IMG/VR virus record: IMGVR_UViG_3300013954_000001
Coordinates: 1 to 64,000 of that record
Origin: a virus
Lineage: Duplodnaviria; Heunggongvirae; Uroviricota; Caudoviricetes
Strand: one strand, 5' to 3'
Length of the DNA stretch: 64,000 nucleotides
Of the stretch, positions 3,386 through 64,000 are shown piece by piece (the first letter of the stretch is position 1; every line of letters starts with the position of its first letter). Position numbers and translations under genes: made by a program. The notes below the pieces were generated by a model. The model had not been told where the DNA came from, made no database searches, and worked only from the letters and a program-made list of their open reading frames with translations.

Positions 3386-4326
3386 TGACGATCACAGCAG
3401 AAATCATCGCCGACAGTATCAGTGAAACTGGCGTACGCATTACAACTTTCGAGCTTGAATATTGGAGAGGTATTCACGCCGAACTGATGACTCACCGCGT
3501 GTTCAGTCGTAACGCAGCTAGCAGTCGAGCCATCCCAGTAAAGGCAATGAATGACTTGATTCGTGCCGATGTGGCAGGACCGATTCATTTTGGAAAGAAC
3601 AAATCTGGAATGCAAGATGCTGGCGAACACTTTGAAAAGGTTGCAGGGAAATACACTGCCCGAGAATGGTGGGAAATTGCGGCAGACAAGGCTGTAAGTT
3701 TCTCTGACGCCCTCGCTGACGCAGGATACGCAAAACAGGTATGCAATCGTGTGACTGAGCCATATCAGCGAATGAAAGTCGTTGTTACTGCAACCGAGTT
3801 CGACAACTGGTTCTGGCTGCGTAACCACGAAGACGCTGACCCGACTATTCACGTGCTTGCCGCCACTATGCTCGCCGCCTACAAAGACAACACCCCACGT
3901 CTTTTGCTGGCCGGCGAATGGCATACGCCTTACTACGGCGACGGCTTCTGGTCTGACAGCGGCGACTCAGGTCTAGATGCTGCCGGCGTAAGTCTGGCCG
4001 ACGCCCTCATGATCAGTGCGTCGTGTTGCGCTCAAGTCAGCTATCGCAAGCTTGACGACACCCTTGAGAAAGCACGTGAAGTCTACGCGCGCCTCATTGA
4101 GTCTCAGCCTGTACACGCCAGTCCAGTTGAGCATCAGGCAACGCCTATGGCTAAGCCGCTATGGCAGCCGGGCGACAGCGACGCTAGCAACAATTACCAG
4201 TGGGAAGACGGCACTACTCACATGGATTGTCGTGGTAACTTCTGGAGTGGCAACTTCTGTCACTGGATTCAGCACAGGCAGCTGATCCCCGGTCACACCT
4301 GCACGAAGTACGAGGAACTGGCATGA
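3385..4326 (+). CDS. thyX: ThyX-like flavin-dependent thymidylate synthase homolog, divergent (THR in place of RHR), with a Cys-rich C-terminal extension
   Basis: The start follows a GAGGGA RBS. The motif ELMTHRVFSRNAASSRAIP resembles the ThyX RHRxxSxxxxSSR signature. The product is 313 aa, longer than typical ThyX, with a Cys/His-containing tail. Its position after nrdAB-grx is where T4 carries td. Confidence 0.5.
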   Translation: MTITAEIIADSISETGVRITTFELEYWRGIHAELMTHRVFSRNAASSRAIPVKAMNDLIRADVAGPIHFGKNKSGMQDAGEHFEKVAGKYTAREWWEIAADKAVSFSDALADAGYAKQVCNRVTEPYQRMKVVVTATEFDNWFWLRNHEDADPTIHVLAATMLAAYKDNTPRLLLAGEWHTPYYGDGFWSDSGDSGLDAAGVSLADALMISASCCAQVSYRKLDDTLEKAREVYARLIESQPVHASPVEHQATPMAKPLWQPGDSDASNNYQWEDGTTHMDCRGNFWSGNFCHWIQHRQLIPGHTCTKYEELA

Positions 4327-9677: not shown

Positions 9678-11350
9678 AACTTTTTCCGGTTCACTGCACC
9701 GATGGTTACAAGTTAGGCCATCGCGGCATGTATGCACCCGACACGACGCTGGTGTATTCTAACTTCACGCCGCGCAGTGACAGCCGCTTCAACGGCAGCC
9801 GCTTCTATGACGGCAAGATGGTTGTGTTCGGCATTCAAGGTTTCATCAACGAATTCCTTGTCGAAGTTTTCAACGAGAACTTCTTTGCCATCGACAAAGA
9901 AAAGGCTGTTGCTCGCTTTCGGCGTCGCGTCGACAACTACCTGACTCCAGGCTCTATTCCAGTCGACGGCATCGCAGCGCTTCACGACCTCGGCTATCTG
10001 CCGCTCGAAATCATGGCGCTTCCCGAAGGATCGCGAGTTCCGATGAAAGTGCCGGTACTGACTGTTCGCAACACGCACAAAGACTTCGCGTGGCTCGTCA
10101 ACTATCTCGAATCGGTTATCAGCAACTCGATTTGGAAGAGCATGGTTAACGCGACCCTCGCCTACGAATATCGTCGCGTCTTCGACTACTATGCCGACCT
10201 CACAGGTTCGCCTAAAGAACTGGTGATGTGGCAAGGCCACGACTTTTCGTATCGCGGCATGTCTGGCCCTGAAGATGGCGCCCGCAGTGGTGCCGCGCAT
10301 CTGCTGTGCTTCGCCGGCACTGACAGCGTTTCGGCAATCGACTACATCGAAGACTACTACGGCGCTGACGTCGAACACGGGTTTGTCGTAGGCTCTGTAC
10401 CTGCTACTGAACACAGCGTTTCGTCGAACAACATCCTGTTCGAAGAGCGCAAGTATGACGGCGACGTCACCAACTCTAAAATCTGTGCCGAAATCGCATT
10501 CATGCGGCGCTATCTCACTGAAGTCGTTGCAGACGGCGCAATCGCAAGCTATGTTGCCGACACTTACGACTACTTTGGTGTGTTGACTCGCGTGCTGCCG
10601 GCGCTCAAAGACGTCATTATGTCTCGCAGTGGCAAGCTCGTCATTCGTCCCGACAGCGGCGATCCCGTCAAGATCGTGTGCGGATACGACGCAGTTGTCG
10701 ACGTCACAGACCTTAGCGCCATGACGCTGTTCAAGGTTTACCACAACAACTGTGGCAGCAACGTTGCCGTACGCTGTGACGACAAATACTACAAAATCAA
10801 GGTATGGCGTGAACCTGAAGACGAAGAAGATCGCGTCGTAAAGGCTGTCGAAATCAGCGAAGCCGAAGTCAAGGGTTCTATTCAGATTTTGTGGGAGCTG
10901 TTCGGCGGCACTACAACTGACAAAGGCTTCAAGCTGTTAGACTCTCACATCGGCCTGATTTACGGCGACAGCATCACGCTTGACCGTCAAGATGCTATCC
11001 TGCGGCGGCTCGCAGCCAAAGGTTTCGCCAGCGCAAACGTTGTGTTCGGAATCGGCAGCTACACTTACAACTATTCGACTCGCGACACCTTTGGGTCGGC
11101 GATGAAGGCTACAATGTCTATCGTCGACGGCGAAGCCATCGAACTCTACAAAGACCCGAAGACAGGTGACGCCATGAAAAAGTCGGCGCGTGGCTTCTTG
11201 AAGGTCGAAAAGGTAGATGGAGAGTTCGTGCTTGTCGACCAAGTCGAAGGCATAGAAACCTACTGCGGCGAAATGAGTGTCGTCTTCTACAACGGCAACG
11301 CGTACTGCGAATCCTTCTATGCAATCCAAGACCGCCTGCTAAGCTCTTAA
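9674..11350 (+). CDS. nadV: Nicotinamide phosphoribosyltransferase family (NadV/NAMPT-like, or Namat-like)
   Basis: The N-terminus MKLFPVHCTDGYKLGHRGMY is the canonical NAMPT start. It has an AAGGAG RBS. The product is 558 aa with an internal insertion of about 60 aa. Confidence 0.85.
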   Translation: MKLFPVHCTDGYKLGHRGMYAPDTTLVYSNFTPRSDSRFNGSRFYDGKMVVFGIQGFINEFLVEVFNENFFAIDKEKAVARFRRRVDNYLTPGSIPVDGIAALHDLGYLPLEIMALPEGSRVPMKVPVLTVRNTHKDFAWLVNYLESVISNSIWKSMVNATLAYEYRRVFDYYADLTGSPKELVMWQGHDFSYRGMSGPEDGARSGAAHLLCFAGTDSVSAIDYIEDYYGADVEHGFVVGSVPATEHSVSSNNILFEERKYDGDVTNSKICAEIAFMRRYLTEVVADGAIASYVADTYDYFGVLTRVLPALKDVIMSRSGKLVIRPDSGDPVKIVCGYDAVVDVTDLSAMTLFKVYHNNCGSNVAVRCDDKYYKIKVWREPEDEEDRVVKAVEISEAEVKGSIQILWELFGGTTTDKGFKLLDSHIGLIYGDSITLDRQDAILRRLAAKGFASANVVFGIGSYTYNYSTRDTFGSAMKATMSIVDGEAIELYKDPKTGDAMKKSARGFLKVEKVDGEFVLVDQVEGIETYCGEMSVVFYNGNAYCESFYAIQDRLLSS

Positions 11351-20879: not shown

Positions 20880-20910
20880 AAAAAAGGCGCCTTTCGGCGC
20901 CTTCTTTTTA
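20880..20910. terminator. Bidirectional rho-independent terminator (AAAAAGGCGCC-tttc-GGCGCCTTCTTTTT)
   Basis: A perfect GC stem with A/T runs on both sides. It lies downstream of the gp32 stop. Confidence 0.65.
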
Positions 20911-21873
20911 CTGCTGCTCTGCGAGCTTGCGGAACATTTCTAGCACGTCGTCACCGTCGCCGCCTTGCGGCTCAGAACCAGACTCTTCGTCGGCGTCAGG
21001 CACCTTCGGAGTGTTGTCTTGCTCGGCTTCGCGCTTGGCTTGCTCAGTCAGACGATCAACAACAGACTGTGCGACGTCGCCAGTTTCAAGGCGGTCATGT
21101 GCTTCGCCAGTGACCTTCTTGAAGCGCTCAGCCAGTTCTTCAAAGCTCTTGACTTTGGCGAAATCGCTGAGTTCGTGAGTCATGTTGAAAATCTCTTCTT
21201 TCTTGGCGTCGTCGCCTTCGAACAACTCGCTCGGACGGTCGAACTCAGAGTTTTCGTAGTTCGGCACAACAGTCTTGCCACCGTTACGCTGATCAGGGAT
21301 TTCTTTGCCGACAATCTTGATCTTGAAGTCGGCGCCGTTCCACATGTCGAACGGGTCCATCGGTTCGTCGTCTTCGAACTCAGGCTTGGCAGCTGCTTCA
21401 ATCATCTTGAAGATTTGCGCTCCGAATTCGTAGATCATCACCTTGCCGTTGTTGGCCGGGTTGACAGTGTCTTTGATGACGAGAACGTTGGCGAAGTACT
21501 TAGTGTTGCGCTTCCGCGACTTGGCGACGTTCTTCAGGCTTTCATTGCCTTCGGCCTCACCTTTGTTCCAGTACAGGCGGTTCGAAATGCCTACCGGATC
21601 GTCTTCGCCGATAGTCGAACGGCTGTTCTCAATGTACCAACCACCCGAGCCTTTGAAGGCGTGACTGAAGACGCGTACGAACGGCTCGCCGGCTTTAGCT
21701 GGCAGGAAGCGAACGACGGCGTAGCCTTTGCCTTCCTTCTTGTCGAAGCCCGGCTTATAGATACGTTCGTCTTTTTGGCCACCGCTGCCTTTGTTCATCG
21801 TCTCAAGCTTTTCAGTCAGCTTGGACAGGTTGGAGCCACGGCTAGTTTTCAGTTTTGCAAAGTCAATGCTCAT
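20908..21873 (-). CDS. Single-stranded DNA-binding protein (T4 gp32-like)
   Basis: YAVVRFLPAKAGEPFVRVFSHAFKGSGGWYIENS matches T4 gp32 [36 protein letters not shown]. The C-terminal tail is acidic (DADEESGSEPQGGDGDD). Confidence 0.8.
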   Translation of the reverse strand: MSIDFAKLKTSRGSNLSKLTEKLETMNKGSGGQKDERIYKPGFDKKEGKGYAVVRFLPAKAGEPFVRVFSHAFKGSGGWYIENSRSTIGEDDPVGISNRLYWNKGEAEGNESLKNVAKSRKRNTKYFANVLVIKDTVNPANNGKVMIYEFGAQIFKMIEAAAKPEFEDDEPMDPFDMWNGADFKIKIVGKEIPDQRNGGKTVVPNYENSEFDRPSELFEGDDAKKEEIFNMTHELSDFAKVKSFEELAERFKKVTGEAHDRLETGDVAQSVVDRLTEQAKREAEQDNTPKVPDADEESGSEPQGGDGDDVLEMFRKLAEQQ

Positions 21874-21934
21874 ATCAGAATCACCTTTTGTCTAAATATT
21901 GAATGTCGTTAATCATTTTAAGGTTTAGTTTTAC

Positions 21935-22732
21935 ATGTTCACTCAACATATTTATAGCGTACCTCACATTCAACATCACTTAGACAGGTACGTTAAGTTC
22001 ATCACAACGGCAATGAAGCAAAACGAACCTATCGGTGAAACTATAGAAATCCACCACATACTACCAAAGTCTATATGGCCAGAATTCTCAAACCTCAAAA
22101 AGAATCCCTGGAACATGGTGAGACTTACGTCTCGGCAACATTTTATAGCTCATTGCATGCTTGTCAAGTGTTTCTTCGATTCACACAAGCGTTCTATGTG
22201 CTACGCGTTAAAGTGTATGAAAGGTGTTCACTCTAACTACGACCGGTATTTCAACTCGAAGACTTACAATACACTGCGGCATTTAGTTTCAAATGCCTGT
22301 TCTGGCGAAAATAACGCAATGTACGGTAAAACTCACTCTGAAGTAGCAAGAGCGAAGATAAGCGCTACGCATAAAGGTAGAGAAATCACGAAGGAACACC
22401 GAGCCAAAATCAGTAACGCTATGTCGGGTGAGAACCATCCATTGTTCGGTACTACCAGATCAGAAGACACGAAAAAGAAGATTAGTGCGGCAATGGCCGG
22501 CAAGAAAACTCGATTAGGTGCCGTTTTAACTGATGAAACAAAAGAAAAAATCAGAAAGTCTCTTACCGGTAGAAAGCGTGAACCTGTATCTGAAGAGACT
22601 AAGGCTAAGCTTCGAGCGGCGAGAGCCAAACAGAAACCTAACCCTGTGATGGTATGCCCGTACTGCAAGCTAGAAAGCCGCAACAAAGGTAATATGACCA
22701 GGTATCATTTCGATAACTGCAAGATGAAGTGA
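21935..22732 (+). CDS. HNH homing endonuclease with three NUMOD3 repeats and a C-terminal C2HC zinc knuckle
   Basis: The HNH motif is IEIHHILPKS...N...RLTSRQHFIAH. The repeats read NAMYGKTHSE/ARAKIS, GENHPLFGTTRSEDTKKKIS and TDETKEKIRKS. The C-terminus is CPYCKLESRNKGNMTRYHFDNCK. It is inserted between gp32 and gp59 on the opposite strand. Confidence 0.75.
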   Translation: MFTQHIYSVPHIQHHLDRYVKFITTAMKQNEPIGETIEIHHILPKSIWPEFSNLKKNPWNMVRLTSRQHFIAHCMLVKCFFDSHKRSMCYALKCMKGVHSNYDRYFNSKTYNTLRHLVSNACSGENNAMYGKTHSEVARAKISATHKGREITKEHRAKISNAMSGENHPLFGTTRSEDTKKKISAAMAGKKTRLGAVLTDETKEKIRKSLTGRKREPVSEETKAKLRAARAKQKPNPVMVCPYCKLESRNKGNMTRYHFDNCKMK

Positions 22733-22768
22733 CCATTTTGTATTTTCCTTAAGTGACGTCAATTGTCG

Positions 22769-23371
22769 TTAATCGCGTTTAAATGTTGTCACAACAACTT
22801 GCCGCAAGGTTGCTAGCGTGTCGGCGTCGATGTACAGGCTGACAAATTTCTTGTCGGCGGCAATCTTAGCCTTCCACGGAGCGAACACGAATGGTTCGTT
22901 GCTGTAGACGTTATTTAGTTGCGGTACAGCCAGAAACAAAATTACAGCGTCACGATAAACAATCACACCAGAATCAACTAGTTCGTAGATTCTAGGTAGA
23001 GTCCCGCCATTTTCGAACAACTCGGCAAAGTTGTCAACACCAGATTTCAATTTTTCCATTGCTCGACTGAAGGTCGGCACGATGTTGTCGACGTACGCCA
23101 TGTATTCACGATAGCAGGTATGCATGAATCTGACGTTGTCGGCTTTCACGAAACCCGCCTTAGCGAATGCCGGGTAGAAGAACTTCAGCTGATCGCAGAG
23201 AACAGGGAAGTTGCGTTCGATGGCAGCATACTGGTATACGATGGCCTTGTTGGCGGCATACTTGTCGGCAGAAACGCGCGTCTTGAAGTTGTACAGCCAG
23301 CCGTCGTAGGCGCCGCCGCGATAGTGCGCCGACATGCCACAAAACGTTTGATACGCCGTCAAGCCTTTCAT
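22769..23371 (-). CDS. Helicase loader (T4 gp59-like)
   Basis: YDGWLYNFKTRVSADKYAANKA matches T4 gp59 YDVIKYNWCMRVSDAAYQKRRD. The position upstream of gp32 conserves T4 synteny. Confidence 0.55.
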   Translation of the reverse strand: MKGLTAYQTFCGMSAHYRGGAYDGWLYNFKTRVSADKYAANKAIVYQYAAIERNFPVLCDQLKFFYPAFAKAGFVKADNVRFMHTCYREYMAYVDNIVPTFSRAMEKLKSGVDNFAELFENGGTLPRIYELVDSGVIVYRDAVILFLAVPQLNNVYSNEPFVFAPWKAKIAADKKFVSLYIDADTLATLRQVVVTTFKRD

Positions 23372-53984: not shown

Positions 53985-55586
53985 ATGTCGCAATCTCCCG
54001 GTGTATATACTCAGGAGAAAGATTTGACGTTCAATACCCAAAGCGTGACTTCTAACGCTACAGGGTATGTCGGTCTTTTCCGTTGGGGCCCGGCCGATGA
54101 AGTAGTCGAACTGACTACTAACGAAGCCGAACTAGCCCAGCGTTTCGGTCAGCCTGACGCGCTGACAACTTCGTTCTTCCATGCAGCCGCGAACTACATG
54201 AATTACAGCGTACCTCTGTACGTCGTTCGTGCTATTGGCGGCGCCGCGAAGAACGCAATTCCTGCCGATGCTAAAACCAACGGTATTTCCGCTCCTGTCG
54301 TACTGAACAAAGATCACTACGAAGACGTCAACCTTGACGGCATCAGCTTTGTAGGTCGATATCCTGGAGAACTGGCCAACACTCTGAAAGTGTCTGTTGC
54401 CGATTCGACCGGTTTCGCTACTTGGGCGTACGCCGACGAATTCGAGTACGCGCCTGTTAGTGGCACGTTCAATATGGTAGTAGTCGACGAAGACGGTCTG
54501 CTGACTGGCTCTAAAGGCGCAGTCGTAGAACGCTACGAACTCATGACTACAACTCCTGGCGCCAAGAAGACTGACGGTACGTCTGCGTACATCGTAGAAG
54601 TTGTCAAGAACCAGTCTCAGTTCCTGTTCGTCGGCGACGTCGCGGCAATCGTGTTCGAAGCTGGTGTATACGAACAATCAATGGTTGACGGCGTCGACGA
54701 TAACGTCGTAGACAACGCTGACTTCGTGTCGGCTTGGGCTAAGTTCGAAAGCAAGGACGAAGTGGATATCACTCGCGTCTTCACGTCGTTCAACCCGCTG
54801 CCGGCCACTATTGCCGCCATCGATCTTGCCGACACTCGTCAAGACACTATCGCGTTCAACGCTTGTCGTCTGGCTGACGTCTACAACACTGTAGATCGCG
54901 TCGACAACCTCGTTGCTTACTACGGCACGATTCTGAACAAGCCTACCAGCTATGCGTTCAACGTAGACAACTGGAAGATGGTTTATGACAAGTATAACGA
55001 CAAGTACATTTGGATCCCTTGCGATTCTGATGCTGCTGGTCTACATGCTCGCCTGTTCGTATTGAACGAGCCGTGGTTCTCTCCTGCCGGCCTGAACCGC
55101 GGACAGCTGAAAAACGTCATCAAGCTCGCTTGGTCGTCGAATCAGCCGCAGCGCGACGTTCTGTACAAGCAGAGCATCAACAGCATCGTGGCGTTCAAAG
55201 GCGAAGGTACTGTTCTGTTCGGCGACAAGACCGCCCTCATGGCGCCGTCTGCGTTCAGCCGTATCAACGTGCGTACGCTGTTCATCGTCATCAAGAAGGC
55301 GATTGCCCGCAGCGCTCGTTATCAGCTGTTCGAACTGAACGACTTCATCACCCAGGCGCTGTTCCGCAACGCTACTGTGTCGTATCTCGACAACGTTCAA
55401 AGTCGTCGAGGCATCTACGACAAGCGTGTCGTGTGTGACGCCACTAACAACACGCCTCAGGTAGTAGACAGCAACGAATTCGTCGGCGACATCTATGTCA
55501 AGCCAGCGCGTTCGATCAACGTCATCCGCCTGAATTTCATCGCCGTCGGTACTGGCGTCGACTTCTCTGAAATCGAAGGCGCGTAA
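53985..55586 (+). CDS. Tail sheath protein (T4 gp18-like)
   Basis: 533 aa, placed in T4 order between gp17 and gp19. A CATAAATA late-like box lies upstream, and a terminator follows. Confidence 0.7.
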   Translation: MSQSPGVYTQEKDLTFNTQSVTSNATGYVGLFRWGPADEVVELTTNEAELAQRFGQPDALTTSFFHAAANYMNYSVPLYVVRAIGGAAKNAIPADAKTNGISAPVVLNKDHYEDVNLDGISFVGRYPGELANTLKVSVADSTGFATWAYADEFEYAPVSGTFNMVVVDEDGLLTGSKGAVVERYELMTTTPGAKKTDGTSAYIVEVVKNQSQFLFVGDVAAIVFEAGVYEQSMVDGVDDNVVDNADFVSAWAKFESKDEVDITRVFTSFNPLPATIAAIDLADTRQDTIAFNACRLADVYNTVDRVDNLVAYYGTILNKPTSYAFNVDNWKMVYDKYNDKYIWIPCDSDAAGLHARLFVLNEPWFSPAGLNRGQLKNVIKLAWSSNQPQRDVLYKQSINSIVAFKGEGTVLFGDKTALMAPSAFSRINVRTLFIVIKKAIARSARYQLFELNDFITQALFRNATVSYLDNVQSRRGIYDKRVVCDATNNTPQVVDSNEFVGDIYVKPARSINVIRLNFIAVGTGVDFSEIEGA

Positions 55587-55589
55587 ATA

Positions 55590-55627
55590 GAAAAGCCGGA
55601 ACTGTTGGCGCAGTTCCGGCTTTATAC
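55590..55627 (+). terminator. Rho-independent terminator (AAAAGCCGGAACTG-ttgg-CGCAGTTCCGGCTTT)
   Basis: A long GC stem with a T-run after the gp18 stop. Confidence 0.7.
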
Positions 55628-55652
55628 AATCACTTGATCAGGAAGTAATTGC

Positions 55653-56408
55653 ATGACTATGTATATCGTGTATCTGACAGAAAATCTAGTGAACGGAAAA
55701 ATATATGTTGGAGCCCATAAGACTGATCGTCTCGACGATGGATATTTAGGTTAAGGGCCAGCGATAAAGAATGCCATTAAAAAGTATGGTAGAAAGAATT
55801 TTAGTAGACAAGTCCTTTTCGTGTTCGACAACGAAGCCGACATGTACGAAATGGAAAGTCGAATAGTAGATAGTGAATTTGTTCGTCGCCAAGATAACTA
55901 CAACGGCATCACTGGCGGTATGACAGGTAGACATTTTCCAGGTGAGCTACACCCTATGTACGGAAAGTCTCATTCAGAAGACACTAAGCGAAAAATGAGC
56001 GCCGCTAAGAAAGGTGACAAACACCATAACTGGGGCAAGACTGGCGAAGGCATGCCAATGTTTGCAAAGAATCACAGCGAAGAGTCTAAAAACAAAATAC
56101 GCGCAGCAATGATTGGCAACAAGCACGGTAAAGGATTCAAATGGTCAGATGACGCCAAGGCTAGAATGAGCGAAGCGCGCAAAGGCTCTGACACTTCTCA
56201 TTTAGTTAGGTGTGGCGAAGACAACGGTTTCTTTGGTAAGTCACACTCTGAAGAAACTAAAACCAAAATTCGTGAAAGTTATAACAAATCTCAAATATTA
56301 CTGACTTGCCCGCACTGCGAAAAGCAGTCGAGGAACAAGGCTAATATGAGACGTTATCATTTTGATAACTGCAAGTCTATAAATAATGTAAACATTTTAG
56401 AGGTTTAA
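55653..56408 (+). pseudogene. GIY-YIG homing endonuclease (Seg/I-TevI-like) with NUMOD3 repeats and a C2HC zinc knuckle, interrupted by an in-frame TAA at 55752-55754
   Basis: The N-terminus YIVYLTENLVNGKIYVGAHKT is a GIY-YIG box, followed by a TAA. The same frame continues AIKKYGRKNFSRQVLFVFDNE...NYNGI, which is the KYG..NF.F.ILE...GYNI continuation of the family. The C-terminal CPHCEKQSRNKANMRRYHFDNCK matches the HNH gene at 21935. Confidence 0.55.
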
Positions 56409-56412
56409 ATCT

Positions 56413-56937
56413 ATGTCCATTTCACGTTTCAAGTCGGCCCTCAAAGGGGGTGGCGCACGGAGTAACCGCTTCGAAGTTCTGATCGATTTCCCGGCATTCG
56501 CTGCCGGGAACGACGAAATCCGCAAGACGGCTTTCTTGTGTTCGTCTACTCAGCTACCGGGTTCGACTCTTGGTGTTATCGAACAACCGTTCCGTGGCCG
56601 CGTGCTGAAGCTGGCAGGCGACCGCACTTTTGACGAATGGGAAGTTACATTCGTCAACGACACTGACTTCGGTCTGCGCAACGCGTTCGAGCGCTGGCAC
56701 AACTTCATCAACGGCTACAACAGCAACACTGGTTCTACTGTACCTGACGACTACATGTCGAACTGTACTGTATACCAGCTTGACAACAACGACAACCGTA
56801 TCAAGGAATATACTCTGATGCTGGCTTGGCCGACTGTTGTCGCTCCGATCGAAGTAGGTCAAGACCAAAACGATCAGATCGAAATGTTTGCTGTCACGTT
56901 TGCCTACAGTGACATCAACAACGGCAACAACTCTTAA
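56413..56937 (+). CDS. Tail tube protein (T4 gp19-like)
   Basis: SNRFEVLI, AGDRTFDEWEVTF and FAVTFAY parallel T4 gp19 PNLFQVEI, AGDRTFDDWTVTV and FEVTLAL. Confidence 0.8.
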   Translation: MSISRFKSALKGGGARSNRFEVLIDFPAFAAGNDEIRKTAFLCSSTQLPGSTLGVIEQPFRGRVLKLAGDRTFDEWEVTFVNDTDFGLRNAFERWHNFINGYNSNTGSTVPDDYMSNCTVYQLDNNDNRIKEYTLMLAWPTVVAPIEVGQDQNDQIEMFAVTFAYSDINNGNNS

Positions 56938-56944
56938 GCTAAAT

Positions 56945-56970
56945 ATGGGTGAAGATGTAAAAGTCTTCAC
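56945..56970 (+). other. Hairpin GGGTGAAGA-tgtaaaag-TCTTCACCC between gp19 and gp20; no T-tract follows
   Basis: A 9-bp perfect stem immediately after the gp19 stop codon. Confidence 0.35.
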
Positions 56971-56996
56971 CCACTTTAGCAAAAGGTTATCACTTT

Positions 56997-58520
56997 ATGG
57001 CGATGTTTGACTTTCTAAAAGGCAAAAAGGTTGTAGATGAACTAGACAGCAAGACGCTGTCGAATCAGATCGCAACTGACTTCTCGGACGGTGCGCTCAC
57101 TATTGAGAACGCCGCGTCAAACTTCATCATGAATTTTGATTGGACTGCGAATACTCAGGCAGAACTAATTGACAAGTATCGCGAAGTTGCGAACTACAAC
57201 GAAGTAGACTTTGCCATTCAAGACATCATCAATGAAATGGTGTCGTTCGGCGAAGACGAAGACCCAGTCAAGATTGACTTAGATGACGTCGAAATGTCTG
57301 ACGCCATCAAAAAGAAAGTGCATGAGAAATGGGAAAAGATTTGTGACCTGCTTGCACTGCGAGACACTATCCACCAACGCGCCTACAATTTCTACGTAGA
57401 CGGACGCGTTGCATATCACAAGGTAGTCGACTCGAATAATTTGAAGCGTGGTCTGCTCAACGTCGTCGAGCTAGACCCGCGTTACGTGACCAAAGTACGT
57501 AACATCAGCTACAACGCCGATGCCAAGACTATCAAGAGCATCGACGAAGTTTTCGTGTACAACGAGAACAGCCAAGACGAAAAGAACAAGCGCGCCACTA
57601 CAGTCAACGGCTATCAGTTCAAAGAAGCGTTACAGCTGTCGAAAGAGTCTGTTACGTACGTTACGTCAGGCATGACTGATCCAAAGACAGGCTACGCTAT
57701 CAGCTGGCTTCACAAGGCCGTTAAGCCGGCGAATCAGCTGCGTATGATGGAGAACGCACTAGTCATCTATCGTATCACTCGCGCACCCGAACGCCGCGTG
57801 TTCTACATCGACGTCGGCAACTTGCCTAAGAACAAAGCCGAACAATACTTGAGCAATCTCAAGAATTCGTATCGCAACCGCATGTCGTATGACCCGGAAG
57901 CCGGATCATTCAAAGATCAACGGCATCTGATGACGATGCAAGAAGACTTCTGGTTACCGCGTACGACTTCTGGTAAAGGCACTGAAGTGTCTACGCTACC
58001 AGGTGGTGCCAACCTAGACTCTATCGAAGACGTCAACTACTTCTTGCGCCGACTTTACAAGGCGCTGAACATCCCGACGTCGCGCCTCGAACAAGATTCT
58101 CTAGTCTCTATCGGTGGCCGCGACTCTCAGATCAATCGAGACGAAATGAAGTTTTCTAAGTTCGTGTCGAAAGTGCGCAAGCGTTTCAACGTCGTCTTCC
58201 GCGACTTGCTTCGAACTGAGCTAGTACTGTCGAACATCATCAAAGACACTGAGTGGGCCGAACTTGAAAACAAGATCAAGTTCGTTTACGCCCAAGACAT
58301 GTATCTCGAAGAGCGCAAGTACTTCGAAATGATGCGCGACCGTATCGATCTTGCCAATGAACTGAAGGAATACGTAGGCAAGTACTACAGCCATGACTTC
58401 ATCCGTTCTGAAATTCTGCGTCAGACTGACAGTGACAAAGAGTTGAACGACAAGAAGATCGGCGAAGAACAGAGCAACACACAATTTCAACCTAAAGAAG
58501 ACGACGACGCTCGTTATTAA
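56997..58520 (+). CDS. Portal protein (T4 gp20-like)
   Basis: 507 aa (T4 gp20 is 524 aa), at the T4 position after gp19. Confidence 0.75.
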   Translation: MAMFDFLKGKKVVDELDSKTLSNQIATDFSDGALTIENAASNFIMNFDWTANTQAELIDKYREVANYNEVDFAIQDIINEMVSFGEDEDPVKIDLDDVEMSDAIKKKVHEKWEKICDLLALRDTIHQRAYNFYVDGRVAYHKVVDSNNLKRGLLNVVELDPRYVTKVRNISYNADAKTIKSIDEVFVYNENSQDEKNKRATTVNGYQFKEALQLSKESVTYVTSGMTDPKTGYAISWLHKAVKPANQLRMMENALVIYRITRAPERRVFYIDVGNLPKNKAEQYLSNLKNSYRNRMSYDPEAGSFKDQRHLMTMQEDFWLPRTTSGKGTEVSTLPGGANLDSIEDVNYFLRRLYKALNIPTSRLEQDSLVSIGGRDSQINRDEMKFSKFVSKVRKRFNVVFRDLLRTELVLSNIIKDTEWAELENKIKFVYAQDMYLEERKYFEMMRDRIDLANELKEYVGKYYSHDFIRSEILRQTDSDKELNDKKIGEEQSNTQFQPKEDDDARY

Positions 58521-58537
58521 CTCCCGAGGAACAAGTA

Positions 58538-58777
58538 ATGTCCGAAGTAGCACAAAAGTTTATCGACCAGCTGAAGCAGCAGAATCTTCTTGAAGCCATT
58601 GAGGTGATCAAAGAAGAACTTGCTAGCCGCGCTCGCAAGACCGTCGAAGAAGTCAACTTCACTGTAGCCGAGTCTTTCAAGATGTCTCGAATCGTCGAAG
58701 CCGACGAGGAAGAAGAAGAGGATGATGACGAAGAAGACGAAGGCGACGACAAAAACGAAGGCAAGGACGACGAATAA
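58538..58777 (+). CDS. Prohead core protein (T4 gp67-like), acidic
   Basis: A 79-aa protein with a poly-E/D C-terminus (EADEEEEEDDDEEDEGDD), at the T4 position between gp20 and gp68. Confidence 0.5.
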   Translation: MSEVAQKFIDQLKQQNLLEAIEVIKEELASRARKTVEEVNFTVAESFKMSRIVEADEEEEEDDDEEDEGDDKNEGKDDE

Positions 58778-59043
58778 TGACCGAAGTCATCGACGAAGCA
58801 CGAATTATCACTAAGGTAAATGCTCGCGGTGAAAAGCGTCGACGCGTCAAGTGTAAACCAGGCTTCAAGCTGAACAGTGAAGGGACGTCTTGCGTTCCAG
58901 TCACAGGCGGCGAAAAGGCTTCAAAGCGTCGAGCAATCCGCAAGTCTGTACGCACAAAGCGCGCTATGGGTAAAGGCTTCGCCATTCGCGTTCGTCGTAA
59001 GAAGCTGCGAGCAATGAAAAAACGCAAAGCATACGGGCTGTAA
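58777..59043 (+). CDS. Prohead core protein (T4 gp68-like), basic
   Basis: An 88-aa Lys/Arg-rich protein coupled to gp67 by an ATGA overlap. Confidence 0.45.
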   Translation: MTEVIDEARIITKVNARGEKRRRVKCKPGFKLNSEGTSCVPVTGGEKASKRRAIRKSVRTKRAMGKGFAIRVRRKKLRAMKKRKAYGL

Positions 59044-59045
59044 TC

Positions 59046-59675
59046 ATGGCAAAGCTGTTGACAGAATCAAGCTTCGCAGTCGAAGTCCTTCACGAACAAA
59101 CTGCTTCTGGTAAGCAGTTGTACATCGAAGGCATCTTCGCTCAAGCAGAAGTAAAGAACGGTAACGGTCGTTTCTATGAGCGTAGCGTCATGGAGACTGC
59201 TGTTACCAACTACATCGACACTTACGTTAGTCGGCGCCGCGCGCTAGGCGAACTCAACCATCCTGACAGGCCGTTCGCAGACCCGGCAGAAGCCGCGATT
59301 CTGATCGAAAGTCTCGAATGGCAAGGTAACAACGTCATCGGTAAGGCTAAGGTGTTGAACACACCTAAAGGCCAAATTGTTGCCGGCCTGCTAGAAGGCG
59401 GCTTCAACATGGGCGTGTCTACACGCGGACTCGGAACTCTCAAAGAACAGCGCGGAATGAAGTATGTTCAACCCGGCTTCAGCTTGACAGCTGTAGACGC
59501 CGTTGATCTACCGTCAGGTCCCGACTGTTACGTGCGACCGCTTGTTGAGTCTAACTGGATTCAGAAGAACGGCGTATGGGTTATGGCTGACGGCATCGCC
59601 GAATCTCAAGGCTTCGACGAGCAAATGTTCCTCGAACGTCTAGAAAATTTCGTGAAGTCAATCAAAACAAAGTAA
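59046..59675 (+). CDS. Prohead core protease (T4 gp21-like)
   Basis: 209 aa (T4 gp21 is 212 aa), with a GELNHPDRP motif region, at the T4 position. Confidence 0.65.
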   Translation: MAKLLTESSFAVEVLHEQTASGKQLYIEGIFAQAEVKNGNGRFYERSVMETAVTNYIDTYVSRRRALGELNHPDRPFADPAEAAILIESLEWQGNNVIGKAKVLNTPKGQIVAGLLEGGFNMGVSTRGLGTLKEQRGMKYVQPGFSLTAVDAVDLPSGPDCYVRPLVESNWIQKNGVWVMADGIAESQGFDEQMFLERLENFVKSIKTK

Positions 59676-59691
59676 TCAGTTAACCTGACGT

Positions 59692-59699
59692 TATAAATA
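59692..59699 (+). promoter_or_regulatory. T4-type late promoter TATAAATA
   Basis: An exact box 34 nt upstream of the gp22 ATG. Confidence 0.6.
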
Positions 59700-59732
59700 A
59701 CTTCAATAGCAAAAACTTTAGAGGAACACAGA

Positions 59733-60470
59733 ATGGACCACATCAACGCACTGTTTGAAGGTCAGGAACTGTCCGAAGAGTTCAAAGTTAAGGCTACCGC
59801 GATTGTCGAATCTGCTCTTGCCGAGCGTGAAGCTGTCATTCGTGAAGCCGTTGAAACTGAACTCAAAGCCGATTACGAAGCTCGCATCGAAGAGCGCGTC
59901 AAAGAGCTTGAACAGGTAACTGAATCTTACATCAGCGAAGAAGTCATGCCTAGCATCGACAAGTACCTGACTGCCGCCGTCAACGAATGGCTGGAAGAGA
60001 ACAAGGTAGGCATCGAAGCTAACGCAAAAGTACAGATGGCAGAATCTTTCCTTCACGGTCTTGTTGGCCTTGCCGGCTCGCACAACCTGAAGATCAGCGA
60101 AGCCGAATCTACTCAGATCGCAGAACTCGAAGCCAAGCTTGAAGCTGTCAAAGAAAGCCTTAACCAGCTGACTGACCGCAACATTGCCCTGATCGAAGAG
60201 AACCAGTCATTCAAGAAGAGTGCCGTCGCCGGTAGCATCACTGCCGACCTCAGCGAAGCTCAGAAAGACAAGATCGCCGGCATCGTAGAGCGCATCGAGT
60301 TCAAAGACGAAGACCAGTACGCAGCTGCCGTCAAGTCAATCGTCGAGTCTTACTTCCCTGTTTCTGCAAAGCCTGAAGTCGAAGAGACCGTGGTGAATGA
60401 GCCTGTAAAGGTTGACGAAGCCGCCAAGTCTTATACGTCTCGCCTGATGGAAAGTGTGCTAGCCGGTTAA
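59733..60470 (+). CDS. Prohead scaffolding core protein (T4 gp22-like)
   Basis: A 245-aa helical protein rich in Ala, Glu and Lys, at the T4 position before gp23. Confidence 0.65.
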   Translation: MDHINALFEGQELSEEFKVKATAIVESALAEREAVIREAVETELKADYEARIEERVKELEQVTESYISEEVMPSIDKYLTAAVNEWLEENKVGIEANAKVQMAESFLHGLVGLAGSHNLKISEAESTQIAELEAKLEAVKESLNQLTDRNIALIEENQSFKKSAVAGSITADLSEAQKDKIAGIVERIEFKDEDQYAAAVKSIVESYFPVSAKPEVEETVVNEPVKVDEAAKSYTSRLMESVLAG

Positions 60471-60499
60471 TAGGCTAGCTCAATCAGAAACAATGGTTG

Positions 60500-60507
60500 T
60501 ATAAATA
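60500..60507 (+). promoter_or_regulatory. T4-type late promoter TATAAATA
   Basis: An exact box 36 nt upstream of the gp23 ATG. Confidence 0.65.
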
Positions 60508-60542
60508 AATTTAAACTACAAGTTCGTACACGGAGAACCCAA

Positions 60543-61820
60543 ATGACCGAACTTCTGAAAGAAGAAGTCGCCAAGCTGATCGAAAGCGACAAGTTCCCTA
60601 AGATCACTAGCGATTACCGCAAGCAAGTAACTGAACGCGTTCTGGAAAACCAGATCAAGTTCCTGAACCAGGTTAACGAATCTGACGTTCCTACTAACCA
60701 AACTGGCGGCGTTTCGAACTTCGATCCAGTACTGGTGAAAATGGTTCGCCGTTCTATGCCTCAACTGATGGCTTTCGACCTGATGGGCGTACAGCCTATG
60801 TCTGGCCCAACTGGCAGCATTTTCGCAATGCGCGCTCGTTACGCTAACCAGACTGGCTCTGAAGCTCTGCACGACGAAGCTAACTCAGCGTTCTCCGGTA
60901 CTGGCGCTCAAGCCGGTGATACCTCCGGTTTCGCTGCTGACGCTTTCGGCGCTGGTAGCCCGGCTGTTGGCACTACTACTGGTACTGCCATGTCTAAAGG
61001 CGCTGGCGAACTGCTTGGCTCTCAGGGCAACCCAGCTTGGGCAGAAATGGCATTCAGCGTTGAGCGTGTCGACGTGTCTGCTAAGACCCGTAAGCTGAAG
61101 GCTCAGTTCTCTCGCGAACTGCAATACGACCTGAAGAACATTCACGGTCTTGACGCAGAAAGCGAACTGGCCAACATTCTGTCGACCGAAATCACTGCTG
61201 AAATCGACCGCGAATGTCTGCGTACTATCAACGTATCCGCTGTGCTGGGTGCTCAGAACGCCGCTACTGCCGGTCTGTTCGACATCGCTGCTGACAGTGA
61301 TGGCCGCTGGCTCGTTGAGCGCTTCAAGGGTCTGCTCTTCCAGATCGAACTTGAAGCTAACGCTGTCGCCAAGGCTACCCGTCGTGGTCGCGCCAACCGC
61401 ATCGTTTGCTCGTCTAACGTTGCATCGGCTCTGAACATGGCTGGCGTTCTCGACTACAACCCTGCACTGGCTGCTAACCTGAGCGTCGATGACACTGCTC
61501 AGACTTACGCTGGCGTGCTGATGGGCAAGTATCAGGTCTACATCGACCCGTATGCTACTGTCGACTACGTGACTGTCGGTTACCGTGGTTCTAACGCTTG
61601 GGATGCTGGCGTCTACTTCTGCCCGTATCTGCCGCTTGAACTGTACCGTACTGTTGGTGAAGACAACTTCTCGCCGAAGATCGGTTTCGCGACTCGTTAC
61701 GGCGTAGTTGCTAACCCGTTCGCTTCTCACACCGCTGGCGGCGCTAAAGCCGGTCTGGGTCTGGGTCAAGGCGAAAACCAGTACTTCCGGAAAATGGCAG
61801 TTCGCAACATCGCTGGTTAA
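60543..61820 (+). CDS. Major capsid protein (T4 gp23-like)
   Basis: VKMVRRSMPQLMAFDLMGVQPMSGPTGSIFAMRARYA parallels T4 gp23 MGMVRRAIPNLIAFDICGVQPMNSPTGQVFALRAVYG. The C-terminal YFRKMAVRNIAG parallels AYFRRVYVKGI. Confidence 0.9.
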   Translation: MTELLKEEVAKLIESDKFPKITSDYRKQVTERVLENQIKFLNQVNESDVPTNQTGGVSNFDPVLVKMVRRSMPQLMAFDLMGVQPMSGPTGSIFAMRARYANQTGSEALHDEANSAFSGTGAQAGDTSGFAADAFGAGSPAVGTTTGTAMSKGAGELLGSQGNPAWAEMAFSVERVDVSAKTRKLKAQFSRELQYDLKNIHGLDAESELANILSTEITAEIDRECLRTINVSAVLGAQNAATAGLFDIAADSDGRWLVERFKGLLFQIELEANAVAKATRRGRANRIVCSSNVASALNMAGVLDYNPALAANLSVDDTAQTYAGVLMGKYQVYIDPYATVDYVTVGYRGSNAWDAGVYFCPYLPLELYRTVGEDNFSPKIGFATRYGVVANPFASHTAGGAKAGLGLGQGENQYFRKMAVRNIAG

Positions 61821-61830
61821 GGATGACAGA

Positions 61831-61862
61831 AAAAGAAAAGGCGCCTTTAAGGCGCCTTTTTT
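61831..61862. terminator. Bidirectional rho-independent terminator (AAAAGGCGCC-ttta-AGGCGCCTTTTTT)
   Basis: A perfect GC stem with A/T runs. Confidence 0.7.
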
Positions 61863-63424: not shown

Positions 63425-63437
63425 ACCGTTCTCTTGT

Positions 63438-63476
63438 CAAACAAAGAAGGCGCTACATTAGCGCCTTCTTTTTATA
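63438..63476. terminator. Bidirectional rho-independent terminator (AAAGAAGGCGCTA-catt-AGCGCCTTCTTTTT)
   Basis: A GC stem with A/T runs. Confidence 0.65.
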
Positions 63477-63488
63477 CTTAGCCAGAGT

Positions 63489-63953
63489 TTACTCGCCGAT
63501 AGTCGGGTCGTACTCGACAACAGTCAAGTCTTCGCCTTCCATTTCTTCAGCGATGATAGCCGAGATAATCGACCAGTCGCCGCGTGCAAGGCCGGCGCCG
63601 ATCAACGGGATTCCGAAGCGCTTGCCTTGGCCGCCGTGTACGATCTTGATTTGCTTGAACGCGTTACGAACGGCGTCGTAATCGCAATTCATGGCAGGTC
63701 CGCTGTAGCTGAATTGCGTGTAGGCGTTGACGATGACGCCGAAGCCTTCGATTTCAGCTTGAGTGAAGCTACCAAGCTTTTCACGATCCCACTTCTTCGT
63801 CATCTTGTCGACGTTCCATGCGGCTGGGAAGCGCTCGCGAATCTGGCGCGCAATGCCTGCACCCATGTTGTTGCCACAGTTGCAGCCGTGAACGATGACG
63901 TCGAAGTCGCCATTGCTGAACTTAGTGAGGAGATCGCCTTTTACTGTTTTCAT
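63489..63953 (-). CDS. Macro-domain protein (ADP-ribose binding/hydrolase fold)
   Basis: DVIVHGCNCGNNMGAGIARQI parallels the macro N-terminal block (ivNaAN..l.gGgGvdgAI). GIPLIGAGLARGDW parallels iafPaIstGiyg.p. Start MKTVKG was chosen because it has an AAGGAA RBS. Confidence 0.65.
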   Translation of the reverse strand: MKTVKGDLLTKFSNGDFDVIVHGCNCGNNMGAGIARQIRERFPAAWNVDKMTKKWDREKLGSFTQAEIEGFGVIVNAYTQFSYSGPAMNCDYDAVRNAFKQIKIVHGGQGKRFGIPLIGAGLARGDWSIISAIIAEEMEGEDLTVVEYDPTIGE

Positions 63954-64000
63954 TTTGTCATTCCTTTTCATGGTGTAAATACAAGTCACATCACACACAG

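What the first reader, a model, noticed from the sequence alone, without database searches (positions are those of the whole stretch)
21935..22732. Two homing endonucleases (HNH and GIY-YIG) share a near-identical C-terminal DNA-binding module
The HNH gene (between gp32 and gp59) and the GIY-YIG gene (55653-56408, between gp18 and gp19) both end with three NUMOD3-like repeats (G..H.[SE]E.[TK].K[IM]) and a C2HC knuckle, CP[YH]C[KE].[EQ]SRNK[GA]NM[TR]RYHFDNCK, with about 20 of 23 residues identical. Different catalytic cores are fused to the same recognition module. This is direct evidence of domain shuffling among mobile nucleases within one genome. It also predicts related target sequences at the two insertion sites.
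Basis: seen in the sequence. Interest (0 to 1): 0.6.

Follow-up and report, generated by a model that had tools for sequence, protein, structure and literature searches.

The report
Two homing endonucleases sharing common DNA-binding parts
A T4-like phage carries two selfish nuclease genes of different catalytic types, one of them broken by a stop codon, whose tails use the same DNA-binding building blocks; this sharing is an old, widespread and already described feature of such genes, not a recent swap inside this genome.

Summary
Both genes are real. ORF 21935-22732 is an intact Mob-like HNH homing endonuclease lying antisense between gp32 and gp59. ORF 55653-56408 is a Seg-like GIY-YIG gene between gp18 and gp19.

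Both proteins end in NUMOD3 repeats plus one CX2C-X13-H-X3-C zinc finger, and the homology is significant (BLASTP E 2e-26). "Near-identical" is overstated:
- The finger is 17/23 identical, not about 20/23.
- The whole C-terminal domain is 38% identical.
- The finger DNA is 71% identical, with Ser AGC/TCG and Arg CGC/AGG codon switches.

The finger is the zinc finger characterised in I-TevIII. It occurs in 58/86 HNH-type and 85/126 GIY-type homologues. Both window fingers match the subfamily consensus at 18/23, and twelve fingers from other proteins match the HNH finger at 17/23 or better.

Cross-class C-terminal identity is the same within this genome (44%) as between this genome and a relative (41-44%). 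The flanks of the two insertion sites share no motif above shuffled controls.

Verdict: ordinary, family-wide modularity. There is no evidence of an exchange within this genome.

The parts
21935..22732 (+). Intact free-standing Mob-like HNH homing endonuclease gene (265 aa), antisense to its neighbours; GC 42.5% against 50-53% in the flanks
   Evidence: T6 MobE aligns over residues 3-265; phrog_655 E 4e-41; GC
21935..22294 (+). N-terminal HNH (His-Me finger) nuclease domain, residues 1-120. H40, H41, P44, N60, H69 and H73 are invariant among 52 aligned homologues
   Evidence: strands 37-41 and 61-65 followed by a helix, pLDDT >90
22304..22630 (+). NUMOD3 repeat region of the HNH protein, about five helical units
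   Evidence: PF07460, 100.2 bits, 3 stretches; five helices
22655..22723 (+). I-TevIII-type zinc finger CPYCKLESRNKGNMTRYHFDNCK (C241, C244, H258, C262)
   Evidence: the four ligands are invariant; beta-beta-alpha, pLDDT 93-97
55653..56408 (+). Seg-like GIY-YIG homing endonuclease reading frame, interrupted by a stop codon (pseudogene); GC 41.0%
   Evidence: (phrog_314 E 4e-53)
55752..55754 (+). In-frame TAA (codon 34) in place of the Ser of the conserved YLGSG motif. The related phage has TCA here. The same TAA is present in an independent Logan assembly
55821..56408 (+). Longest open frame left (195 aa, GTG start). It retains NUMOD3 and the zinc finger but lacks the GIY and YIG strands
   Evidence: P0121, called as a 195-aa gene elsewhere
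55941..56279 (+). NUMOD3 repeat region of the GIY-YIG frame
   Evidence: PF07460, 84.4 bits, 5 stretches
56307..56375 (+). I-TevIII-type zinc finger CPHCEKQSRNKANMRRYHFDNCK
   Evidence: (phrog_12324 E 7e-4, phrog_27406 E 3e-5)
20908..21873 (-). gp32 single-stranded DNA-binding protein (flank of the HNH gene)
   Evidence: 71% aa identity to pf16 gp32
22769..23371 (-). gp59-type DNA helicase loader (flank of the HNH gene)
   Evidence: phrog_269 E 7e-14
53985..55586 (+). gp18 tail sheath (flank of the GIY-YIG gene)
55592..55623 (.). 13-bp-stem hairpin just after gp18. A hairpin of different sequence occupies this position in the relative and in pf16. The endonuclease gene sits downstream of it
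56400..56403 (+). GAGG ribosome-binding site of gp19, lying inside the last codons of the endonuclease frame (..NILEV*)
   Evidence: inference from the sequence
56413..56937 (+). gp19 tail tube (flank of the GIY-YIG gene)

Best explanation
The window comes from a pf16-like (T4-type) phage carrying two free-standing homing endonuclease genes in intergenic gaps between conserved genes.

Gene 1 (21935-22732) is an intact Mob-like HNH enzyme.
- Inferred from characterised relatives (MobA, MobE, I-TevIII): its N-terminal His-Me finger nicks or cuts the endonuclease-free allele of a co-infecting relative, in or near gene 32 or 59.
- Recombinational repair then copies the endonuclease gene and its flanking markers into that genome.

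Gene 2 (55653-56408) is a Seg-like GIY-YIG gene inactivated by a TCA->TAA nonsense mutation at codon 34. It is at the decay stage of the homing-endonuclease life cycle.

Both proteins use the standard 'beads-on-a-string' DNA-binding tail of phage homing endonucleases: several NUMOD3 helical units followed by one CX2C-X13-H-X3-C zinc finger. This is the same type as the two fingers of I-TevIII, which bind zinc and are needed for DNA binding.

Their similarity reflects common descent of these small modules across the whole Seg/Mob/I-Tev superfamily, i.e. ancient and repeated shuffling, plus strong conservation of the finger consensus. It does not reflect an exchange between these two genes in this genome.

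Shown here: gene structure, the stop codon, homology, family-wide distribution, positional conservation in a relative, empty sites in pf16, and lack of excess similarity.
Inferred: nuclease activity, targets, zinc binding.
For: Identity of the two genes
- tblastn: the HNH protein aligns end to end with T6 MobE and other 'Mob-like HNH' genes, and the GIY protein with KVP40 SegD and other 'Seg-like' genes, in both cases through the zinc finger.
- PHROG homing-endonuclease families match at E 4e-41 and 4e-53.
- The HNH catalytic residues and the four zinc ligands are invariant in 52 homologues.
- AlphaFold model: mean pLDDT 86.6, with a beta-beta-alpha finger at 239-257.

The stop codon
- TAA at 55752-55754, against TCA in the relative.

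Position and mobility
- A related contig (core proteins 43-84% identical) has both genes at the same two junctions, with the GIY gene intact.
- Phage pf16 has neither. Its sheath-tube gap is 71 bp and its gp59-like/gp32 gap is 15 bp.
- T4 has SegG, a GIY-YIG enzyme without this finger, at the same 32/59 junction.
- The two genes are 42.5% and 41.0% GC against 50-53% in their flanks.

Family-wide distribution of the finger
-.
- The T4 scan finds the finger in defective I-TevIII (two copies) and in nrdB.1, just downstream of mobE.
- I-TevIII fingers, written CX2CX12-13HX3C, bind zinc, and their mutation lowers DNA binding and cleavage (PMC1865063).
- Both endonuclease families have modular tails built on the same plan (PMC2988022; NUMOD modules, PMC1564403).

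No excess similarity within the genome
-.
Against: - By BLAST bit score, the C-terminal domain of the HNH protein ranks the GIY orthologue of the relative 2nd and the window GIY 4th among about 370 collected proteins. Its own positional orthologue P0002 ranks 60th. This weakly hints at a lineage-specific relationship.
- The 'SRNK' loop is shared by the window HNH and both GIY orthologues, but not by P0002.
- No Pfam HNH model hits the N-terminus at E<=1, and the Pfam GIY-YIG scores are below the gathering threshold.
- The second assembly carrying the TAA may derive from the same sample.
- Nuclease activity and targets are untested.
Confidence: 0.8

Rival explanations
1. One reading: the C-terminal recognition module, or at least the zinc finger, was exchanged between the two endonuclease genes within this phage lineage by recombination or gene conversion between co-resident genes.
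For: - The 13-residue loop with 'SRNK' is shared by the window HNH finger and by both GIY orthologues, but not by the HNH orthologue P0002.
- By BLAST bits the GIY orthologue P0122 and the window GIY rank 2nd and 4th among hits for the HNH C-terminal domain, and the HNH protein ranks 3rd for the GIY C-terminal domain.
Against: - Finger DNA is only 71% identical, with multi-step synonymous codon switches.
- Fingers with a 13-residue loop of the same type also occur in other HNH-type proteins, for example P0258 at 18/23 and P0292.
- Twelve fingers from other proteins are at least as close.
- The phmmer ranks are 39 and 40.
- Cross-class identity is flat at 41-44% whether the pair is co-resident or not.
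- The difference from P0002 is explained by two 23-residue repeat-unit indels rather than by replacement.
Confidence: 0.07
2. The TAA at 55752-55754 is an assembly or sequencing error, or is read through, so the GIY-YIG enzyme is full length and active.
For: - It is a single-base difference (TCA/TAA) in an otherwise open 251-codon frame with no other defects.
- The two assemblies that show it are 100% identical over 9.9 kb and could come from the same sample.
Against: - Two independent assemblers (the JGI source contig and Logan SRR1749646) give the same base.
- The window holds no tRNA gene, so there is no suppressor there.
- TAA is the stop codon least prone to read-through (general knowledge).
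- Truncated and defective homing endonuclease genes are common: T4 mobA and I-TevIII, and the 'truncated putative GIY-YIG' of Aes517.
Confidence: 0.1
3. The 195-aa remnant (NUMOD3 repeats plus zinc finger, no GIY-YIG strands) is kept as a nuclease-free DNA-binding protein, for example a repressor or a protector of the cognate site. This would parallel the autorepressor role of I-TevI.
For: - The downstream frame is fully open.
- Its 3' end carries the gp19 ribosome-binding site.
- I-TevI doubles as a repressor, and T4 keeps the zinc-finger remnant of I-TevIII (PMC2988022 and PMC1865063).
Against: - There is no recognisable Shine-Dalgarno sequence before GTG 55821 or the next ATGs (my reading).
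- A single recent nonsense mutation leaves a frame open by default, so openness is not evidence of selection.
- There are no comparative data on remnants.
Confidence: 0.08

Closest known systems
T4/T6 MobE and other Mob-like free-standing HNH endonucleases
   Same: An N-terminal HNH core with HH...N...H. It is free-standing in an intergenic gap between conserved genes. T6 MobE aligns over residues 3-265, including the C-terminal finger. T4 carries the finger in nrdB.1, directly downstream of the annotated mobE.
   Different: Only 28-33% identical. It is inserted at the gp59/gp32 junction rather than at nrdA/nrdB, and is antisense to its neighbours. It has about five NUMOD3 units.
I-TevIII (RB3 nrdB-intron HNH endonuclease)
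   Same: An HNH domain plus zinc fingers of the CX2CX12-13HX3C type. These are shown to bind zinc and to be needed for DNA binding (PMC1865063). The window fingers match the C-terminal part of phrog_12324, 'intron-like DNA endonuclease'. T4 keeps only the finger-bearing remnant, a parallel to the window's broken GIY gene.
   Different: I-TevIII is intron-encoded, has two tandem fingers and acts as a dimer. The window proteins are free-standing, with one finger preceded by NUMOD3 repeats.
Seg-like GIY-YIG free-standing endonucleases (KVP40 SegD, pf16 gp94, Acinetobacter and Aeromonas phage Seg-like genes)
   Same: GIY-YIG core, then NUMOD3 repeats, then a terminal finger. Identity is 33-38% over residues 1-243. 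pf16 gp94 ends in CPHCNKTAKRSGRMTFNHFDNCK.
   Different: The window copy has a nonsense codon at position 34. It sits at the gp18/gp19 junction. None of T4's own seven Seg proteins has this finger.
T4 SegG
   Same: Occupies the same junction, between genes 32 and 59. It is known to cut in gene 32 and to drive marker exclusion (table in PMC2988022).
   Different: It is a GIY-YIG enzyme, not HNH. It has the same orientation as its neighbours and lacks both the NUMOD3 repeats and the C2HC finger. It is an independent invasion of the same gap.
I-TevI DNA-binding domain (PDB 1i3j) and the NUMOD modules of Sitbon & Pietrokovski
   Same: The NUMOD3 unit 'GENN..G..HS....K.KIS' aligns to I-TevI residues 41-70. 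These are extended modular tails shared by GIY-YIG and HNH enzymes.
   Different: The match is weak (E 0.16). The I-TevI zinc finger is a Cys4 linker element that sets the cleavage distance and is not a DNA-binding C2HC finger (PMC1865063).

Membership tests
HNH / His-Me finger homing endonuclease (Mob-like) | Conserved HH ... N ... H catalytic motif on a beta-beta-alpha core | tested here: met
   H40, H41, N60, H69 and H73 are invariant in 52 homologues and >=90% conserved in 68. The predicted strands at 37-41 and 61-65 are followed by a helix.
HNH / His-Me finger homing endonuclease (Mob-like) | Match to a curated family model | tested here: inconclusive
   No Pfam HNH model hits at E<=1. 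PHROG homing-endonuclease and HNH families do match: phrog_655 at E 4e-41 and phrog_12434 at E 6e-18. Some homologues carry PF01844.
HNH / His-Me finger homing endonuclease (Mob-like) | Free-standing gene in a gap between conserved genes, absent from that gap in related genomes | tested here: met
   The gp59/gp32 gap is 895 bp here and 15 bp in pf16. The gene is present at the same junction in contig ERR11641694_2802.
HNH / His-Me finger homing endonuclease (Mob-like) | Site-specific nicking or cleavage and preferential inheritance in mixed infection | not testable with these tools
   Needs biochemistry and phage crosses.
GIY-YIG homing endonuclease (Seg-like) | GIY...YIG strands and a conserved catalytic core | tested here: inconclusive
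   The motifs are visible (YIVY...IYVG, YLG*G, E66/E68, N83/N85). Pfam GIY-YIG scores 19.3 bits against a cutoff of 22.6, and SegE_GIY-YIG 18.2 against 25. phrog_314 matches at E 4e-53.
GIY-YIG homing endonuclease (Seg-like) | Uninterrupted reading frame encoding nuclease plus DNA-binding domain | tested here: not met
   In-frame TAA at 55752-55754. The orthologue in the relative is intact.
NUMOD3 (PF07460) | Score above the Pfam gathering threshold | tested here: met
   100.2 and 84.4 bits against a cutoff of 20.4, in 3 and 5 stretches.
I-TevIII-type C2HC zinc finger (CX2CX12-13HX3C) | Ligand spacing and conserved ligands | tested here: met
   Both window fingers are CX2C-X13-H-X3-C. The ligands are invariant. 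The T4 I-TevIII remnant carries CDFC..HNDRC and CPYC..HGDNC. The motif is as given in PMC1865063.
I-TevIII-type C2HC zinc finger (CX2CX12-13HX3C) | Sequence homology to the I-TevIII finger region | tested here: met
   The tails match phrog_12324 ('intron-like DNA endonuclease', 269-position profile) at positions 210-266 and 229-265, at E 7e-4 and 7e-3. These scores are modest.
I-TevIII-type C2HC zinc finger (CX2CX12-13HX3C) | Zinc binding and a contribution to DNA binding | not testable with these tools
   Only a predicted beta-beta-alpha fold (pLDDT 93-97) and a weak local match to the Tramtrack zinc finger 2drp (24 columns, rmsd 2.1 A, E 1.9).

The most novel reading that the evidence does not exclude
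The most novel reading not excluded concerns the finger itself. The I-TevIII-type C2HC finger is a large prokaryotic and viral zinc-finger family with no match in the Pfam copy searched here. It may act as a portable, array-forming DNA-reading unit, since up to nine tandem copies were seen in homologues. Within this phage lineage the HNH gene could have picked up its 13-residue-loop 'SRNK' finger from the co-resident Seg-like gene by an old conversion event. If so, co-resident selfish nucleases would be trading recognition parts inside one genome.
Probability: 0.08. Interest if true: 0.5.

Novelty: new member of a known kind. Interest (0 to 1): 0.2.

Why it matters
The practical value lies in annotation and in choosing experiments.
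- The window gives an intact Mob-like HNH gene at the classic 32/59 junction, where T4 carries the unrelated SegG. That is a clear case of recurrent invasion of one gap by different nuclease classes.
- It also gives a GIY-YIG gene caught just after inactivation, with an intact orthologue in a relative and natural empty sites in pf16. Together these make a tidy three-state series (empty, active, decayed) for studying the homing-endonuclease life cycle in Pseudomonas-type T4-like phages.

The shared module itself teaches nothing new. Modular tails common to GIY-YIG and HNH enzymes have been described since 2003-2010.

Tried and rejected
1. Near-identity DNA search of both loci against 50,697 phage records. 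There was no match for the gp32 locus, and only pf16 matched, at 79% in the sheath gene. The phage itself is therefore not in that collection.
2. Whole-window direct-repeat search. No DNA repeat links the two genes.
3. Hypothesis that the 13-residue-loop 'ES.NK.NM' finger is specific to GIY-type proteins, which would imply a GIY-to-HNH swap. It looked true in the first 240 homologues. An exhaustive search with the 40-aa tail then found the same loop type in HNH-type proteins P0258, P0267 and P0292, so it was rejected.
4. Reciprocal-best-hit test on the C-terminal domains. It was suggestive by BLAST bits but not by phmmer or by percent identity, so it was judged not robust.
5. A database-wide search with the C-terminal domain alone listed no close donor. 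The best non-self hit scored 78 bits at 43% identity.
6. Shared target motif in the +-400-bp flanks of the two sites. The scores (11-13) fall within the shuffled distributions, and 16-113 of 200 shuffles reach them.
7. Sequence search of PDB. No solved relative of the finger was found. There were only weak hits to I-TevI NUMOD3 (E 0.16) and to the human ZNF512 C2HC finger (E 0.13).
8. Foldseek of the full model against PDB gave nothing below E = 1.
9. tRNA scan for a suppressor found none.
10. Exact look-up of the source contig through P0001 found nothing on record.

Full report
**What is at the coordinates.**
- The window (GC 50.0%) is a T4-type phage segment.
- Its nearest deposited relative is Pseudomonas phage pf16: 79% DNA identity in the tail sheath gene and 71% protein identity for gp32.
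- ORF 21935-22732 (+, 265 aa) lies between gp32 (20908-21873, -; Pfam gp32 E 6e-41) and a gp59-type helicase loader (22769-23371, -; phrog_269 E 7e-14).
- The ORF is transcribed against both neighbours.
- The second frame, 55653-56408 (+), lies between tail sheath gp18 and tail tube gp19.

**The two proteins.**
- The first protein aligns end to end with T6 MobE and with genes annotated 'Mob-like HNH homing endonuclease' (28-33% identity). It matches phrog_655 at E 4e-41.
- No Pfam HNH model reaches E<=1.
- In an alignment with 51 homologues, H40, H41, P44, N60, H69 and H73 are invariant.
- The AlphaFold model (mean pLDDT 86.6) shows two strands and a helix there. The nuclease core therefore looks intact.
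- The second frame matches Seg-like GIY-YIG genes such as KVP40 SegD and pf16 gp94 (33-38% identity over residues 1-243). It matches phrog_314 at E 4e-53.
- The second frame is not intact. Codon 34 is TAA (55752-55754), replacing the Ser of the conserved YLGSG motif.
- The longest open frame left is 55821-56408 (195 aa, GTG start). It lacks the GIY and YIG strands.
- A Logan assembly of SRR1749646 is 100% identical to window 54112-64000 and has the same TAA. This is an independent assembly, though possibly of the same material.
- The orthologue in a related contig has TCA and is intact at 238 aa.
- The window holds no tRNA gene.

**Checking the claimed similarity.**
- Both proteins carry NUMOD3 repeats (100.2 and 84.4 bits).
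- Both carry one terminal CX2C-X13-H-X3-C motif. These are the only two such motifs in the window.
- BLASTP gives 38% identity over 154 residues, E 2e-26, so the homology is real.
- The finger is 17/23 identical, not about 20/23.
- Its DNA is 49/69 identical (71%). Only 12 of the 17 conserved residues use the same codon, and Ser is AGC against TCG and Arg CGC against AGG.
- No DNA repeat links the two loci.
- Any common origin is therefore old.

**How widespread the module is.**
- Among the best 240 database homologues of the two proteins, the finger is present in 58 of 86 HNH-type proteins and in 85 of 126 GIY-type proteins.
- An exhaustive HMMER search of 1.84 billion cluster representatives with only the last 40 residues found 657 proteins at E<=1e-3. 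They include HNH-type, GIY-type and other N-termini, and many carry two or more tandem fingers.
- The consensus of the 206 fingers with a 13-residue loop is CPHCGKESKNKGNMKRYHFDNCK. Each window finger matches it at 18/23.
- Twelve fingers from other proteins match the HNH finger at 17/23 or better, and two match at 18/23, one of them in an HNH-type protein.
- I first thought the 'ESRNK' loop was confined to GIY-type proteins, which would have pointed to a swap. The exhaustive search removed that argument.

**What the finger is.**
- Scanning T4 found the same motif twice in the defective I-TevIII remnant and once in nrdB.1, just downstream of mobE. None of the T4 Seg proteins has it.
- Robbins et al. 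2007 (PMC1865063) describe these 'CX2CX12-13HX3C' fingers in I-TevIII. Each binds one zinc, and mutating either lowers DNA binding and cleavage.
- The window tails match the C-terminal part of phrog_12324, 'intron-like DNA endonuclease'.
- The model predicts a beta-beta-alpha finger at pLDDT 93-97.
- There is no solved relative by sequence. The only hits are a weak resemblance to the human ZNF512 C2HC finger and a weak local match to the Tramtrack finger.
- The NUMOD3 units align weakly to the I-TevI DNA-binding domain, PDB 1i3j.
[quoted passage not shown] NUMOD modules are the recognised tails of GIY-YIG homing endonucleases (PMC1564403).

**Test for an exchange within this genome.**
- A related contig, ERR11641694_2802, has core proteins 43-84% identical to the window.
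- It carries orthologues of both genes at the same two junctions: an HNH gene of 224 aa and a GIY gene of 238 aa.
- This gives four C-terminal domains to compare. Cross-class identity is as follows:

| Pair of C-terminal domains | Identity |
|---|---|
| window HNH vs window GIY | 44% |
| window HNH vs relative GIY | 41% |
| relative HNH vs window GIY | 44% |
| relative HNH vs relative GIY | 44% |

- The two HNH orthologues are themselves 44% identical in this region, against 61% in the nuclease half.
- Their difference is mainly two 23-residue repeat-unit indels. The co-resident pair therefore shows no excess similarity.
- BLAST bit scores do place the GIY orthologue and the window GIY 2nd and 4th among hits for the HNH tail. 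By phmmer they rank 20th and 39th.
- A database-wide search with the tail alone found no close donor.
- I put the probability of a lineage-specific exchange at about 0.07.

**Target-site prediction.**
- Local alignments between the +-400-bp flanks of the two insertion sites, on both strands, score 11-13. Between 16 and 113 of 200 shuffles reach those scores.
- Short contact motifs cannot be excluded.
- Free-standing T4 enzymes cut within neighbouring genes. SegG, for example, cuts in gene 32. Insertion-site flanks are therefore a poor proxy for targets.

**Context that supports mobility.**
- pf16 has neither gene. Its sheath-tube gap is 71 bp and its gp59-like/gp32 gap is 15 bp. The same gaps here are 826 and 895 bp.
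- pf16 carries a Seg-like gene with the same finger elsewhere in its genome.
- T4 has SegG at the same 32/59 junction. SegG is a GIY-YIG enzyme without this finger.
- The relative has a third HNH gene, between gp13 and gp14, which the window lacks.
- A further homologue sits between the DNA polymerase and clamp-loader genes in another T4-like contig.
- Both window genes are AT-rich islands (42.5% and 41.0% GC against 50-53%).

**Conclusion.**
- The two genes are new members of the known Mob-like and Seg-like families, and the second is a pseudogene.
- Their shared tail is the ordinary modular tail of this superfamily.
- Interest is low (0.2).

Noticed in passing
window 55752-55754: In-frame TAA in the GIY-YIG frame (TCA in the related phage). 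The rest of the frame has no other defect, which suggests very recent inactivation.
   Followed up: yes
homologues P0241-P0384 (e.g. P0245, P0251, P0354); not in the window: Many homologues carry tandem arrays of the same C2HC finger: 74 proteins have 2 copies, 50 have 3, 33 have 4, and 14 have 5-9. The period is about 33-55 residues, and the arrays sit behind GIY-YIG-like, HNH-like or unrecognised N-termini. No Pfam model hit the finger in the window proteins at E<=1.
   Followed up: partly
window 21874-22768 compared with T4 (L004 2410-3042): The gp59/gp32 gap is occupied here by an antisense HNH gene, and in T4 by the unrelated GIY-YIG gene segG. One junction has been invaded independently by different nuclease classes.
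   Followed up: partly
window 22140-22167 (- strand): A strong sigma-70-like promoter match (TTGACA, 16-nt spacer, TAAAAT; 11 of 12) lies antisense inside the HNH coding region and points towards gp32. The number of matches in the region is not above shuffled expectation, so it may mean nothing.
   Followed up: no
window 56376-56412; L001 10680-10720: The residues after the finger (..NILEV* here, ..NIFEV* in the relative) overlap the GAGG ribosome-binding site of gp19. The 3' end of the endonuclease gene is therefore tied to expression of an essential gene.
   Followed up: partly
window 55592-55623; L001 about 9935-9970; L010 about 4245-4280: A stable hairpin follows the sheath gene in all three phages, with a different stem sequence in each. 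The endonuclease gene is inserted downstream of it.
   Followed up: partly
L001 3516-4310: The related phage has a third free-standing HNH gene (264 aa, no C2HC finger) between gp13 and gp14. The window has a 99-aa ORF of unknown function (phrog_22774) in that gap instead.
   Followed up: partly
window 21935-22732; P0001: The public gene call for this ORF (P0001, 171 aa) appears, from its length, to start at an internal Met near residue 95. It would therefore omit the whole HNH domain, so the protein looks like a bare NUMOD3 protein in databases.
   Followed up: no
L012 4001-4903: A 42%-identical HNH homologue in another 154-kb T4-like contig lies between the DNA polymerase and clamp-loader genes. 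It too is antisense to its neighbours.
   Followed up: no
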